A stretch of DNA of 16,116 nt, taken from Candidatus Limnocylindrus sp. GTDB lineage: Bacteria; Chloroflexota; Limnocylindria; Limnocylindrales; Limnocylindraceae. The notes under the pieces are model-generated. The model was not told the origin of the DNA, searched no databases, and saw only the letters and a program-made list of their open reading frames with translations. This document shows positions 5,478 to 12,960 of the stretch, piece by piece (position 1 is the stretch's first letter; every line of letters begins with the position of its first letter). The stretch lies in the NCBI GenBank assembly GCA_040397175.1, contig JBBAWM010000009.1, positions 1-16,116 on the forward strand, read 5' to 3'. Made by a program: the position numbers and the translations under genes.

Positions 5478-5548
5478 GTTGCCAATCTGTTGCAAAGAAC
5501 TTTGGCAAATTGGCATGATTTGGGCAATTGGCGTGCTATAATTAAAGT
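5478..5548 (+). promoter_or_regulatory. Repeated promoter P4
   Basis: GTTGC at 5478 and 5489. TGcTATAAT (5537-5542). ATG at 5549. Confidence 0.8.
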
Positions 5549-5629
5549 ATGCACCAAGCAGTCGACCTCGGTTGACTGGCCACAGGCGGCCAACCGGCAG
5601 TCTGTCCGAAACGACAAAAGGACACTACC

Positions 5630-5992
5630 ATCAGTACATCAACTGTTAGCACCACCGTTCGCACCACCAGCACCACCGTCAGCACCACCGAGCAGGTCGT
5701 TGACCTGACCGCCACCGACGCGAAGGCAATCTTCGCTGAGTACGAGGCTATCAAGAAGGCGAAGACCGATCTTGACAAGCAGGAGAAGGCCCTGAAGGAG
5801 AAGCTCCTAGAGCTGACCGGATGGACCGCTGACGGCGTACCTGCCGTCGCCATCGTGAACGGCGAGCCCCTGTTCAAGAAGCAGGCCGGCAAGTCGGTCA
5901 TCTGGGACGCCGAGCTGATGAAGCTCGTCTTCCCTGAGGCCCTCGAGAAGTGCCGCAGCGAGAAGCCAAACTTCTCCATCCGCGCCGCCTAA
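5630..5992 (+). CDS. Hypothetical coiled-coil protein with ATC start codon (120 aa, not in ORF track)
   Basis: ACGACAAAAGGACACTACC-ATC then an open frame STSTVSTTVRTT...EYEAIKKAKTDLDKQEKALKEKLLEL...FSIRAA* with strongly gene-like codons. In-frame TGA upstream at 5573-5575. Confidence 0.75.
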   Translation: MSTSTVSTTVRTTSTTVSTTEQVVDLTATDAKAIFAEYEAIKKAKTDLDKQEKALKEKLLELTGWTADGVPAVAIVNGEPLFKKQAGKSVIWDAELMKLVFPEALEKCRSEKPNFSIRAA

Positions 5993-6014
5993 CAACCGGC
6001 AACACCAGAGGCGG

Positions 6015-6045
6015 GAGCCTCGGCCCACCAGGGCCGGGGCTCTTC
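6015..6045 (+). terminator. Hairpin after ATC-start gene
   Basis: gagcctcggccc-acca-gggccggggctc followed by ttc. Confidence 0.5.
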
Positions 6046-6085
6046 GTCCACCAAGACCACTCACCCCAATCAAAGGACAAGACCC

Positions 6086-7180: not shown

Positions 7181-7251
7181 GTTGCGAAGTTGTTGCGAAG
7201 AGATTTGCCAAAAGTGGGCAATTATAGAGATTCATGCGCTATAATTAGAGT
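7181..7251 (+). promoter_or_regulatory. Repeated promoter P5
   Basis: GTTGCGAAG direct repeat at 7181 and 7192. TATAAT at 7240-7245. ATG at 7252. Confidence 0.85.
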
Positions 7252-7653
7252 ATGACAAACACAACGACAACCCTCGAAATCACCTGGACCGGCAACGAGC
7301 ACCTACCTGCCAAGTACCAGACGTCAGGCAAGCACACAAGCAGCCTGGCCGTAGCAGTCCACCACGACGGCAACGACCTAAGCCTCTGCGAGCGCGTGTT
7401 CGAAGAGACCAACCTCTATCAGGGCGAGCTCTGGGACCGCATCCAGCCGCTACTGCCTGACACTCGCACCCACACGGCCCTGAGCGTCGGAGACCTGGTT
7501 CGCATCGACGACCGCGTGTACAAGTGCGCGAACATCGGCTTCAAGTTGATCGAGGAGGCCGGCCGAACAGTTTACAACGTCTCGAGCGGGCACTTCACCG
7601 GTGCCGGGATCTGCGAGACCTGCGGCCCTCTCTGCGACGACGACGACGAATAG
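7252..7653 (+). CDS. YodL-like domain protein (leaderless)
   Basis: HTALSVGDLVRIDDRVYKCANIGF resembles the YodL S(L/M)SVGDVV...Y....GF motif. The C-terminus has CxxC..C. Confidence 0.7.
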   Translation: MTNTTTTLEITWTGNEHLPAKYQTSGKHTSSLAVAVHHDGNDLSLCERVFEETNLYQGELWDRIQPLLPDTRTHTALSVGDLVRIDDRVYKCANIGFKLIEEAGRTVYNVSSGHFTGAGICETCGPLCDDDDE

Positions 7654-9792: not shown

Positions 9793-9863
9793 GTTGCGAT
9801 GCTGTTGCCAAGAACTTTTGCGTTTTGGCATGATTTGGGCAGATCATGCGCTATAATTGAACT
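9793..9863 (+). promoter_or_regulatory. Repeated promoter P8
   Basis: GTTGC at 9793 and 9804. TATAAT at 9852-9857. ATG at 9864. Confidence 0.85.
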
Positions 9864-9934
9864 ATGAGCAAATGAATGAGTTTGCTCAGACGGCCAGGCG
9901 GCTCCCTGGACAATGACAAAAGGACAACACAAAC

Positions 9935-10563: not shown

Positions 10564-10662
10564 AGCGGCTGCGGCCAGGAGCAGGGCACGGACGGCGACT
10601 ACAACCACTGCGACACCTGCCAGAGCTACAAGTACTTCGGCTGGATTGACGACGAAGAGTAG
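10564..10662 (+). pseudogene. Start-less 3' remnant of a zinc-ribbon gene
   Basis: Frame reads SGCGQEQGTDGDYNHCDTCQSYKYFGWIDDEE* with gene-like codons. It is preceded by TGA and has no start or RBS. Confidence 0.5.
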
Positions 10663-10671
10663 CCGGCAACC

Positions 10672-10731
10672 GTTGCAGAGCTGTTGCTCAAACATGGGCA
10701 AAACTCCCAGATCATGCGCTATAATTGAAGT
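10672..10731 (+). promoter_or_regulatory. Repeated promoter P9
   Basis: GTTGC at 10672 and 10683. TATAAT at 10720-10725. ATG at 10732. Confidence 0.8.
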
Positions 10732-10923
10732 ATGACAACAACCATCGAGTGCAAGGACTGCAAGAAGTCGATCACCAGGGTCTGCCGTCGCTGCAAGGAG
10801 GACGCTGAGTTCTACGAGGACTGCTGGGAGTGCGGCAAGAAGACCCTCAAGGAGAACCTGAGCGTCTGCGACAACTGCCCGGCGTGCGAGGACGATCACG
10901 ACTGCAACGAGTACGACCGCTAG
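10732..10923 (+). CDS. Cysteine-rich double zinc-ribbon-like protein (leaderless)
   Basis: 63 aa with 10 Cys, including four CxxC pairs. Confidence 0.75.
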   Translation: MTTTIECKDCKKSITRVCRRCKEDAEFYEDCWECGKKTLKENLSVCDNCPACEDDHDCNEYDR

Positions 10924-10942
10924 TAAACCAGGCGACGAAACT

Positions 10943-11002
10943 GTTGCAAAGAGTATGCGGCAAATGACGCAAAGCGTCAATGCCACGTGCTATAATTGAA
11001 TA
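10943..11002 (+). promoter_or_regulatory. Repeated promoter P10
   Basis: GTTGC at 10943. TGcTATAAT at 10991-10996. Confidence 0.8.
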
Positions 11003-11056
11003 GTAGCAAGCGCCCGGTCGACCGGTCGGGCGGACACCACGACAAAAGGACACACC

Positions 11057-11383
11057 ATCAAAACATTCAAAAACATCAGCAGAGAAGCGGCAGAAGTAGA
11101 CGGCGGCACCGGACTCGAGGGATACATCACCTCGACCAGGCGCGAACTCGAAACCGCGTTCGGAGCACCGGACGAGACCGGCACCATCGACAACAAGGTC
11201 ACGACCGAGTGGACCCTGAGGTTCAACGACGGAACCATCGCGACCATCTACGACTGGAAGCGATACGAGTACGACCTCGGAGCTCCGGAGCTCGACGAAG
11301 TCTACCAGTGGCACATCGGCGGACAGAGCAAGCAGGCAGTCTACGCCGTCTCGGCAGCGGTCGCCAGAGCAGCGATCGCGTAG
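11057..11383 (+). CDS. Phage hypothetical protein with ATC start codon (108 aa, not in ORF track)
   Basis: ACGACAAAAGGACACACC-ATC. Frame reads ...GTGLEGYITSTRRELETAFGAP...KVTTEWTLRFNDGTIATIYDWKRY...YQWHIGG..., resembling a widespread phage family (ATIYDWK...WHIGG). No ATG/GTG/TTG anywhere in the frame. Confidence 0.8.
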   Translation: MKTFKNISREAAEVDGGTGLEGYITSTRRELETAFGAPDETGTIDNKVTTEWTLRFNDGTIATIYDWKRYEYDLGAPELDEVYQWHIGGQSKQAVYAVSAAVARAAIA

Positions 11384-11398
11384 TCGAGCGGACCAGAG

Positions 11399-11428
11399 AC
11401 CCGGGCGGGAGACCGCCCGGGTTCTCTC
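11399..11428 (+). terminator. Intrinsic terminator (GAGA tetraloop)
   Basis: acccgggcgg-GAGA-ccgcccgggt then tctctc. Confidence 0.7.
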
Positions 11429-11520
11429 ATGCCCCGGGACTGCACGGAGCGGCGACCATCACTCGAGGGCTGAGAGTGCCGGGCGCTGCGCCCGGAGCGC
11501 CCTCGCGACGAGTCCAAATC

Positions 11521-11580
11521 GTTGCAAACTAATTTCGCAAACCAGGCTGATCTGGACCGTCAACGCGCTATAATTGAAGT
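11521..11580 (+). promoter_or_regulatory. Repeated promoter P11
   Basis: GTTGC at 11521. TATAAT at 11569-11574. ATG at 11581. Confidence 0.8.
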
Positions 11581-11826
11581 ATGACAACTATCACAAAGAC
11601 ACCCGCAGAAATCGTTCGCGCCGAGTACGGAGCCATCGTCGGAAAGCGCGTCCTAGACGTGCGGCCCCTGACCGCTGCCGAGCTCAGCGACCTCGCCTGG
11701 GACGACAGTTCCGGCACCATCCCGCTCGTCATCTTCTTCGAGGACGGCAAGGCCCTCATCCCGAGCATGGACCCGGAGGGCAACGGACCGGGACACCTGT
11801 TCATCGACGACTGGAAGCGCGCTTGA
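11581..11826 (+). CDS. Hypothetical protein (leaderless)
   Basis: 81 aa with C-terminal PSMDPEGNGPGHLF motif and gene-like codons. Confidence 0.8.
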   Translation: MTTITKTPAEIVRAEYGAIVGKRVLDVRPLTAAELSDLAWDDSSGTIPLVIFFEDGKALIPSMDPEGNGPGHLFIDDWKRA

Positions 11827-12570: not shown

Positions 12571-12834
12571 CTACTCGACCGGGATGACGATCGGGAAGCC
12601 CTCCCAGGCGACGTCGTGTTCCTTGTCGTCGTCGACCGGGTATCCCTCGAAGTCATCTCCGATGAGGTCCGGGTCTGCGTCCACCTCGATGGCGACCTTG
12701 TCCGGGTCCTTCAGTTTCGACTCCCAGCCGCCAATCAACTTGAGCGTCTTCGGCTCGCCGTCGATGGTGACCTCCCAGTAGACGTCGTACTTGTGCAGTG
12801 CTTTGGCCTTGGCCTGTCCTTTTATAGTTGTCAT
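12571..12834 (-). CDS. Hypothetical acidic protein (leaderless; only minus-strand gene)
   Basis: 87 aa. ATG lies 6 nt after the minus-strand TATAAT. Confidence 0.8.
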   Translation of the reverse strand: MTTIKGQAKAKALHKYDVYWEVTIDGEPKTLKLIGGWESKLKDPDKVAIEVDADPDLIGDDFEGYPVDDDKEHDVAWEGFPIVIPVE

Positions 12835-12894
12835 GTTTCAATTATAGCACATGATTCGCCACCAGGGCCCCAGTTTGGCAACTTTGATTGCAAC
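12835..12894 (-). promoter_or_regulatory. Repeated promoter P12 (divergent)
   Basis: Minus-strand GTTGC begins at 12894. TGcTATAAT at 12846-12841 (48-bp offset). Confidence 0.8.
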
Positions 12895-12900
12895 AAAGTT

Positions 12901-12960
12901 GTTGCAATGAATTATGCGCAAATGGGCTGAAAACGTCAATACTAGCGCTATAATTATTAC
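12901..12960 (+). promoter_or_regulatory. Repeated promoter P13
   Basis: GTTGC at 12901. TATAAT at 12949-12954. Confidence 0.8.

What the first reader, a model, noticed from the sequence alone, without database searches (positions are those of the whole stretch)
11057..11383. Intact gene that can only start at ATC
Seen: complete cassette (P10, hairpin, RBS ACGACAAAAGGACACACC, ORF, terminator) in which ATC sits where sister genes have ATG (compare GGACGCACC-ATG at 2543). The frame from the upstream TGA (10997) to TAG (11381) contains no ATG, GTG or TTG. The product looks like a conserved phage protein. Known: AUC/AUU initiation is rare and normally suppressed by IF3. Inference: deliberate non-canonical initiation, either to tune down expression or to respond to IF3 status during infection.
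Basis: partly seen in the sequence, partly recalled or inferred. Interest (0 to 1): 0.75.

Follow-up and report, generated by a model that had tools for sequence, protein, structure and literature searches.

The report
Lake phage genes starting at ATC
Two intact genes of an uncultured freshwater phage have ATC where related genes have a normal start codon, and other strains carry the same ATC, so it is not a sequencing error but likely a very weak start that keeps these proteins scarce: a known trick, here predicted in a probable actinobacterial phage.

Summary
Confirmed. ORF 11057-11383 has no in-frame ATG/GTG/TTG; ATC lies 6 nt behind AAGGA, where orthologues start (150 of 160 loci ATG; the closest lineage TTG). 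It is no error: contigs from 3 of 4 further studies match base for base through the ATC (the fourth has one unplaced difference), one on an otherwise 7-14% divergent strain. The contig is a stray piece of a DSL-LC01-like phage, probably of Actinomycetia, not of the bin's bacterium. Best reading: selected weak initiation that keeps two accessory proteins scarce (0.6); in M. smegmatis SD+ATC made 0.2% of selected reads against 20.5% for ATG. Nothing supports IF3 sensing: no IF3 in 5 relatives, no extended SD. Translation is untested; both functions are unknown. Near-cognate starts are known (infC, Deinococcus dnaA), and this scan noted similar starts in six other phage genomes. New member of a known kind.

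The parts
10991..10996 (+). -10 promoter hexamer TATAAT of gene 1 (predicted TSS about 11003)
   Evidence: sequence; motif recurs before most cassettes, 6 nt ahead of a leaderless ATG in several; TSS inferred
11011..11032 (+). 9-bp leader hairpin with C-GACC-G loop, one of a family of C(R)ACC-G leader hairpins shared with ATG cassettes
   Evidence: X18 changes the two first loop bases
11039..11056 (+). Ribosome-binding region ACGACAAAAGGACACACC (SD core AAGGA 11046-11050, 6-nt spacer), predicted unpaired
   Evidence: duplex -5.9 kcal/mol, unpaired probability 0.85
11057..11383 (+). Gene 1 (P0001, 108 aa), likely starting at ATC; widespread uncharacterised phage protein with a confidently predicted alpha/beta fold
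11395..11427 (+). GC-rich hairpin after gene 1, probable terminator without U-tract
   Evidence: z -4.4; not called
5537..5542 (+). -10 hexamer TATAAT of gene 2 (predicted TSS about 5549)
5611..5629 (+). Ribosome-binding region ACGACAAAAGGACACTACC of gene 2 (one base longer than that of gene 1)
5630..5992 (+). Gene 2 (P0014, 120 aa), second gene likely starting at ATC; first in-frame canonical codon is GTG at codon 76; weak match to the C-terminal part of phrog_434 (RecE-like exonuclease)
6010..6048 (+). GC-rich hairpin after gene 2, probable terminator
   Evidence: z -3.9

Best explanation
Gene 11057-11383 and gene 5630-5992 are intact accessory genes of a probable actinobacterial phage that likely start at ATC, a near-cognate codon predicted to give about 1% of ATG output, and this weak start is likely kept by selection to hold the proteins at a low level. 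Shown: each gene has its own -10 box, leader hairpin, ordinary SD and 3' hairpin like its ATG sisters, with ATC at the codon where orthologues have ATG, GTG or TTG; the ATC occurs in several strains. Inferred: a strong host-type promoter makes the mRNA, the SD in an A-rich open region places fMet-tRNA on AUC with a third-position mismatch, IF3 rejects most such complexes, and the leak makes a Met-started protein at a low constitutive rate. The start codon acts as a dial independent of the shared promoter design; leader-plus-start alleles (ATG, GTG, TTG, ATC) probably move between gene bodies by recombination.
For: ATC is real and shared: 0 differences through the codon in contigs of X9, X4, X10; the X9 contig differs at 28 of 422 and 46 of 338 positions on either side, with an in-frame 82-to-85-nt replacement, and the 12 listed gene-body changes give 3 synonymous codons and 6 residues that occur in orthologues. 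Position: close homologues begin M/L-K-T-F at the same column; L081-084 have TTG there; JGI entries P0002, P0009, P0181, P0183 begin with L, i.e. a non-ATG start, and P0008 reads KGHD-L. The AlphaFold model includes residues 4-14 as strand and helix (mean pLDDT 92.7). Second gene: ATC in L084 (82% nt identity over 1588 nt), Ile at that codon in P0015, P0173, P0174, GTG in P0019; dN/dS 0.21 between the two ATC copies, ATG controls 0.16-0.61. The 22-nt stretch ACGACAAAAGGACACACCATCA is identical in gene 1 here and gene 2 of L084. ATC can initiate: Deinococcus DnaA by N-terminal MS (PMC2830850, passages); 1-2% of AUG in E. coli (10.1101/063800, passages); above background behind an SD in M. smegmatis (PMC4633059, passages).
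Against: No RNA, ribosome or peptide data. In M. smegmatis ATC was used as the negative control and made 0.2% of selected reads against ATG 20.5%, TTG 28.7% and ATT 9.8%: output may be too low to matter, and TTG is not weak there, so the TTG of the closest orthologues is no clear sign of selection for low output. The SD is not strengthened (-5.9 kcal/mol; several ATG sisters -9.5). The dN/dS of gene 1 (0.40) is measured against a TTG lineage, so it does not date selection to the ATC state. In the gene 2 tree the ATC/Ile rows do not form one clade: M-start rows P0016, P0176, P0177 join the window's copy (81/94, most forks open), so part of the conserved divergence may have accumulated under stronger starts. 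Why a low dose would be favoured is unknown.
Confidence: 0.6

Rival explanations
1. ATC is an off-switch allele: the genes are effectively silenced (for example because the product is costly or triggers a host defence), the leader allele spread recently by recombination, and the frames look intact only because gene bodies keep being exchanged with expressed ATG/TTG/GTG alleles.
For: ATC about 100-fold below ATG in M. smegmatis selection; the 87-nt leader is identical in X9 while its flanks differ by 7-14%, as a recent exchange would give; start codon tracks the first few codons rather than the gene tree in gene 2.
Against: Promoter, hairpin, SD and spacing are all kept, though breaking any would silence more fully; ATC occurs in two different genes and in phages 18% apart; no stop or net frameshift seen in any ATC/Ile copy examined (window, L084, P0015, P0173, P0174, listed X9 changes).
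Confidence: 0.15
2. ATC is a sensor: output rises when the IF3-to-ribosome ratio falls during infection or in a given host state, as for infC.
For: IF3 discriminates against AUU/AUC and infC uses this (PMC5499595, passages); S. aureus ccpN AUA output changes with medium, 10% to 30% of AUG (PMC13009471, passages). Any AUC start should respond to IF3 level mechanically.
Against: No feedback logic: neither product matches a translation factor. No IF3_C in 0 of 5 related viral records, 3 complete. Gene 1 orthologues use TTG or ATG, which IF3 accepts, so sensing is not a conserved need of that gene.
Confidence: 0.12
3. This phage lineage or its host reads ATC efficiently (a phage-encoded IF3 antagonist, an altered initiator tRNA, or a lax host), so ATC is a private start codon and not a weak one.
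For: ATC cassettes were found only in the high-GC clade (2 in the window, 1 in L084) and in none of the cassettes scored in low-GC relatives and DSL-LC01; about 85% of this phage's genome is probably unseen; no SD compensation.
Against: Only 2 of 10 SD-led promoter cassettes use ATC; no initiator-like tRNA in the 11 loci scanned; no IF3 homologue in relatives, though those relatives lack ATC starts.
Confidence: 0.06
4. Translation starts elsewhere: leaderless at the 5' GUA (11003, in frame and open to the ATC), or at ACG 11039 or ATC 11075.
For: The predicted TSS is in frame and open in gene 1, and P0173/P0174 read openly from the promoter into gene 2.
Against: Only ATG and GTG initiate leaderless in mycobacteria; the window's gene 2 has a stop in that frame; L084 gene 1 has a 61-nt, out-of-frame leader; orthologues start exactly at the ATC column; 11039 lies upstream of the SD and 11075 is 24 nt behind it.
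Confidence: 0.05
5. Sequencing or assembly error for ATG.
For: One base (11059) separates ATC from ATG; only contigs, no raw reads, were seen; one X18 difference is unplaced.
Against: ATC in contigs of three studies other than the possible sources; second ATC gene repeated in an independent assembly.
Confidence: 0.02

Closest known systems
Deinococcus dnaA ATC start (PMC2830850; passages read)
   Same: ATC at the start position, shared by related genomes, missed by annotation
   Different: Shown by N-terminal MS in an essential cellular gene; here two accessory phage genes, translation untested, orthologues switch between ATG, GTG, TTG and ATC
infC AUU/AUC start with IF3 autoregulation; E. coli pcnB AUU (as described in PMC5499595 and PMC2830850; passages read)
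   Same: Near-cognate AUH codon behind an SD, subject to IF3 proofreading
   Different: No feedback partner: the products are not IF3 and no IF3 gene was found in relatives
S. aureus cvfC1 AUU and ccpN AUA starts with extended SD (PMC13009471; passages read)
   Same: Conserved weak start that lowers output
   Different: There an extended SD compensates (about 10% of AUG); here the SD is ordinary
Mycobacterial leadered initiation (PMC4633059; passages read)
   Same: Same phylum as the probable host; mix of leaderless ATG genes and SD-led genes as in this contig
   Different: ATT is the robust near-cognate there and ATC barely above background; this phage uses ATC
Actinomycetia phage DSL-LC01 (OQ999401.1, metagenome-assembled; PMC10611076, passages read) and Microbacterium phages Pumpernickel/Cece
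   Same: AAA ATPase 67% and 53%/43% identical; ATPase-vWA pair and neighbours shared with DSL-LC01
   Different: 54% against 64% GC; no tblastn match to gene 1 in DSL-LC01; no ATC cassette found there

Membership tests
Near-cognate (AUH/CUG) bacterial initiation, infC/dnaA type | Near-cognate codon at SD spacing at the position where orthologues start | tested here: met
Near-cognate (AUH/CUG) bacterial initiation, infC/dnaA type | No canonical in-frame codon that could give the conserved product | tested here: met
   none in gene 1; first GTG at codon 76 of 120 in gene 2
Near-cognate (AUH/CUG) bacterial initiation, infC/dnaA type | Codon present in independent genomes | tested here: met
   gene 1: contigs of 3 of 4 other studies; gene 2: L084. 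Not kept in distant orthologues of gene 1 (0 ATC in 160 loci)
Near-cognate (AUH/CUG) bacterial initiation, infC/dnaA type | Initiation shown by N-terminal peptide, toeprint or ribosome profiling | not testable with these tools
   needs an experiment
IF3-sensing autoregulatory start (infC) | Product is IF3 or acts on initiation fidelity | tested here: not met
   no Pfam family for either protein; no PHROG for gene 1 family; gene 2 only weak RecE-like C-terminal match
IF3-sensing autoregulatory start (infC) | Phage carries IF3 or a modulator | tested here: inconclusive
   0 of 5 related viral records have IF3_C, but they are low-GC relatives and this phage is known from 16 kb only
IF3-sensing autoregulatory start (infC) | Output changes with IF3 level | not testable with these tools
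   needs reporter assay
Extended-SD non-canonical starts (S. aureus type) | SD pairing longer or stronger than in canonical genes | tested here: not met
   -5.9 kcal/mol for both ATC genes, ATG sisters -5.8 to -9.6 (anti-SD taken from the bin's 16S, the host's is unknown)
DSL-LC01-like large freshwater actinophages | Shared AAA ATPase-vWA block and neighbours | tested here: met
DSL-LC01-like large freshwater actinophages | Terminase, capsid and portal phylogeny | not testable with these tools
   these genes are not on the contig and no DSL-LC01 structural ORF matched the other contigs of the bin

The most novel reading that the evidence does not exclude
This phage clade uses a portable leader module (C-RACC-G hairpin, ACGACAAAAGGACACACC, ATC) as a conditional translation switch: silent in normal host translation, opened when infection lowers IF3 proofreading or a phage factor relaxes it, and shuffled by recombination among accessory genes as an alternative to ATG/TTG/GTG alleles.
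Probability: 0.1. Interest if true: 0.75.

Novelty: new member of a known kind. Interest (0 to 1): 0.4.

Why it matters
It adds a well-supported natural ATC start in a probable actinobacterial phage, a phylum in which ATC has served as the negative-control codon. Gene callers drop gene 1 entirely and truncate or falsely extend gene 2 (P0170, P0171, P0175 are 48-51-aa stubs; P0015, P0173, P0174 run upstream into the leader or promoter). The same gene bodies occurring with ATG, GTG, TTG and ATC give a natural allelic series for asking how little expression a phage accessory gene needs and whether start codons respond to IF3 in infection.

Tried and rejected
No RNA holder listed. Single-sequence scans of viral contigs found no relative of gene 1, and the gene 2 alignment none; gene 2 has no match in annotated phages. 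Pattern scans of viral contigs for the RBS+ATC module (7 loci) and for the promoter-leader start (5 loci) gave only unrelated or ATG-followed matches. The Dam-methylase scan gave no relative above 63%. Genome scan gave 6 distant loci in unrelated bins. Window DNA in 41 congeners of the bin: only matches of 65 nt or less. Function of gene 1: no Pfam, no PHROG in 123 members, no PDB sequence match; Foldseek PDB none at E<=0.001, best 6z1p_AR (Tetrahymena mitoribosome chain, E 2.6e-3; VIA Z 8.4, rmsd 3.6, 104 aligned, 14% identity), a middling score from which I draw no function; the paper's passages did not identify the chain. BFVD hits are uncharacterised phage proteins. The gene 2 model was low-confidence (pLDDT 58.5) and was not searched; Atlas neighbours of P0016 are unnamed viral clusters; no Atlas result for gene 1. 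Extended SD, leaderless GUA start and phage IF3 were tested and not supported. A genome-wide RBS+ATC count on the bin was not done because the bin is probably not the host. Literature searches listed no paper on a natural ATC start in an actinobacterial phage; subscription journals and supplements were not seen.

Full report
Observation. The cassette is as described: TATAAT at 10991, in-frame TGA at 10997, a 9-bp hairpin at 11011-11032, ACGACAAAAGGACACACC, ATC at 11057 and 108 codons to TAG 11381. The frame has no ATG, GTG or TTG; other near-cognate codons exist (ATA 11000, ACG 11039, ATC 11075 and later), but only 11057 sits at SD spacing. The 3' hairpin is strong (z -4.4) but lacks a U-tract; the consensus scan called neither it nor the promoter.

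What the DNA is. The window is the whole contig C9 of a 1.38-Mb bin. Promoter and RBS motifs are dense only on C9, and 41 congeners hold no part of it beyond matches of 65 nt or less. The bin lacks RbpA at 91.5% completeness; earlier notes of this scan call it Chloroflexota, which I did not test beyond that. The AAA ATPase is 67% identical to that of Actinomycetia phage DSL-LC01 and 43-53% to Microbacterium phages, and several neighbours match DSL-LC01. DSL-LC01 is metagenome-assembled, with a predicted Actinomycetia host (PMC10611076, passages). C9 is thus most likely a stray piece of the accessory region of a large freshwater actinophage: many single-gene cassettes, some leaderless (TATAAT, 6 nt, ATG), some with leader, hairpin and AAGGA. 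The host is inferred, not shown.

The ATC is real. Contigs of X1 and X2, possible sources, match over 10600-11700. Laid on 10975-11061, contigs of X9, X4 (three records) and X10 reach the end with 0 differences; X18 has 3, two in the hairpin loop and one unplaced. These four runs are from four studies. The X9 contig is a different strain: 28 differences in 422 nt upstream and through the start, an in-frame replacement of 82 by 85 nt, then 46 differences and 3 gaps in 338 nt (26 rows of that table were not displayed). The 12 displayed changes inside the gene touch 9 codons: 3 synonymous and 6 giving residues seen in orthologues. All of this is contig evidence.

The gene is real and starts there. 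Twelve close homologues were found, and a profile finds 2445 representatives at E<=0.001. Close homologues begin M/L-K-T-F in the column of the ATC. Of 160 loci, 150 scored ATG, 7 TTG (4 are one lineage, L081-084, 65% amino-acid identity; 3 are doubtful calls), 3 unscorable, none ATC. JGI entries that print the literal first residue give L for P0002, P0009, P0181 and P0183; two of them are otherwise identical to ENA entries printed with M, so an M in the other close entries does not prove ATG. The AlphaFold model is confident (pLDDT 92.7) and includes the N-terminal strand and helix. Function is unknown.

A second ATC gene. At 5630-5992 the same anatomy leads to a 120-aa ORF whose first canonical codon is at position 76. 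In L084, 82% identical over 1588 nt, the orthologue also starts at ATC; P0015, P0173 and P0174 have Ile there (codon not seen), P0019 has GTG, P0020/21 an internal Met, and six others a canonical codon of unknown kind. dN/dS against L084 is 0.21 for gene 2 and 0.40 for gene 1, with five ATG controls at 0.16-0.61. The 22 nt ending ATCA are identical in gene 1 here and gene 2 of L084, which may reflect copying between leaders, but L084's own gene 1 leader is also similar, so origin is open. In the gene 2 tree ATC/Ile and M rows are interleaved, with weak support: start alleles either revert or are exchanged.

How common. Among de-duplicated SD sites within 120 nt of a -10-like box: window 8 ATG, 2 non-canonical only, 1 none; L081-084 9 ATG, 2 GTG, 1 TTG, 2 non-canonical; DSL-LC01 30 ATG, 2 TTG, 5, 4; other loci 484 ATG, 16 GTG, 2 TTG, 36, 188. 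Of 49 non-canonical rows I dropped 40 that had an upstream in-frame canonical codon; of the 9 left, 3 are the ATC starts above, 4 have a canonical codon within 3 codons, and 2 (ATT, L058, L062) are unresolved. The filter can miss cases whose frame runs open through the promoter. ATC starts thus look specific to the high-GC clade.

Mechanism. The SD is ordinary (-5.9 kcal/mol; ATG sisters -5.8 to -9.6) and predicted open, with an A-rich start region in gene 1. Near-cognates give 1-2% of AUG in E. coli (10.1101/063800, passages). In M. smegmatis, SD+ATC made 0.2% of selected reads, against ATG 20.5%, TTG 28.7% and ATT 9.8%, 'low, but above background' (PMC4633059, passages). The likely outcome is a low constitutive leak from a strong promoter (0.6). 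The same paper weakens one argument: TTG is not weak in that host. An off-switch allele spread by recombination remains open (0.15). IF3 sensing (0.12) has no positive evidence: no IF3_C in 5 related records, none among DSL-LC01's annotated products, no initiator-like tRNA in 11 loci; these relatives, however, lack ATC starts, and most of this phage is unseen (private ATC reading, 0.06).

Known cases. ATC initiation is proven for Deinococcus DnaA (PMC2830850); infC and pcnB use AUU/AUC, and mutant phage genes with AUA/AUC/ACG starts give reduced output (PMC5499595); S. aureus has conserved AUU/AUA starts behind extended SDs (PMC13009471). Six searches listed no report of a natural ATC start in an actinophage. 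Earlier notes of this scan describe ATC/ATT/ATA starts in six other phage genomes and one further record; I did not test them.

Verdict. Real, replicated, probably functional weak start codons in two accessory phage genes; new member of a known kind; translation and purpose untested. Interest 0.4.

Noticed in passing
window 1991, 5591, 7741, 11019, 12980, 14482; L081, L084 leaders: Leader hairpins closed by C-G with a (G/A)ACC loop and varying stems: CRACCGG lies within 75 nt of 6 of 13 promoters in the window and 9 of 12 in L084, but 14 of 1249 in low-GC relatives. Found before ATG and ATC genes alike; possible protein-binding or 5'-stabilising element or operator.
   Followed up: partly
G000:C3:4052-4129 (-) and the bin's genus: The bin has tRNA-Ile with anticodon TAT and only two CAT tRNAs; TilS (TIGR02432) passes the cut-off in 0 of 42 genomes of the genus. 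Suggests lysidine-free AUA decoding in this genus.
   Followed up: partly
G000:C2 infC (L161): The bin's infC frame has ATT as its second codon after the upstream stop, the likely start, as usual for infC.
   Followed up: no
window 1981, 8527 (also 5549, 7727, 9864): Leaderless ATG at the predicted TSS; at 1981 and 8527 it is in frame with a second SD-led ATG (two possible isoforms), at 5549, 7727 and 9864 it opens a short uORF. 8 of 10 leader lengths in the window are multiples of three, but only 2 of 8 in L084.
   Followed up: partly
window 5478-5551, 7181-7254, 9793-9866, 12828-12930: Repeated GTTGC-N-GTTGC elements about 45-65 nt upstream of the -10 boxes (D1, D7, D10, I11), a candidate activator site for a phage regulator.
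   Followed up: no
G000:C7:28587-28778; C6: A WhiB gene on C7 and DSL-LC01-like hits on C6 (both 58% GC) suggest further phage contigs in the bin.
   Followed up: no
window 5630-5992: All 8 members of the gene 2 family match the C-terminal part of phrog_434 (RecE-like exonuclease) weakly (best E 1.4e-6) and phrog_1956: possibly a stand-alone recombinase-associated domain.
   Followed up: partly
L058:4789, L062:4635: Possible ATT start behind AAAGGG in low-GC relatives, spacing long, unresolved.
   Followed up: no
L084:1588-1661, L111:2487-2562: tRNA-Ala(GGC) in the L081/L084 phage and tRNA-Ile(TAT) in a low-GC relative.
   Followed up: no
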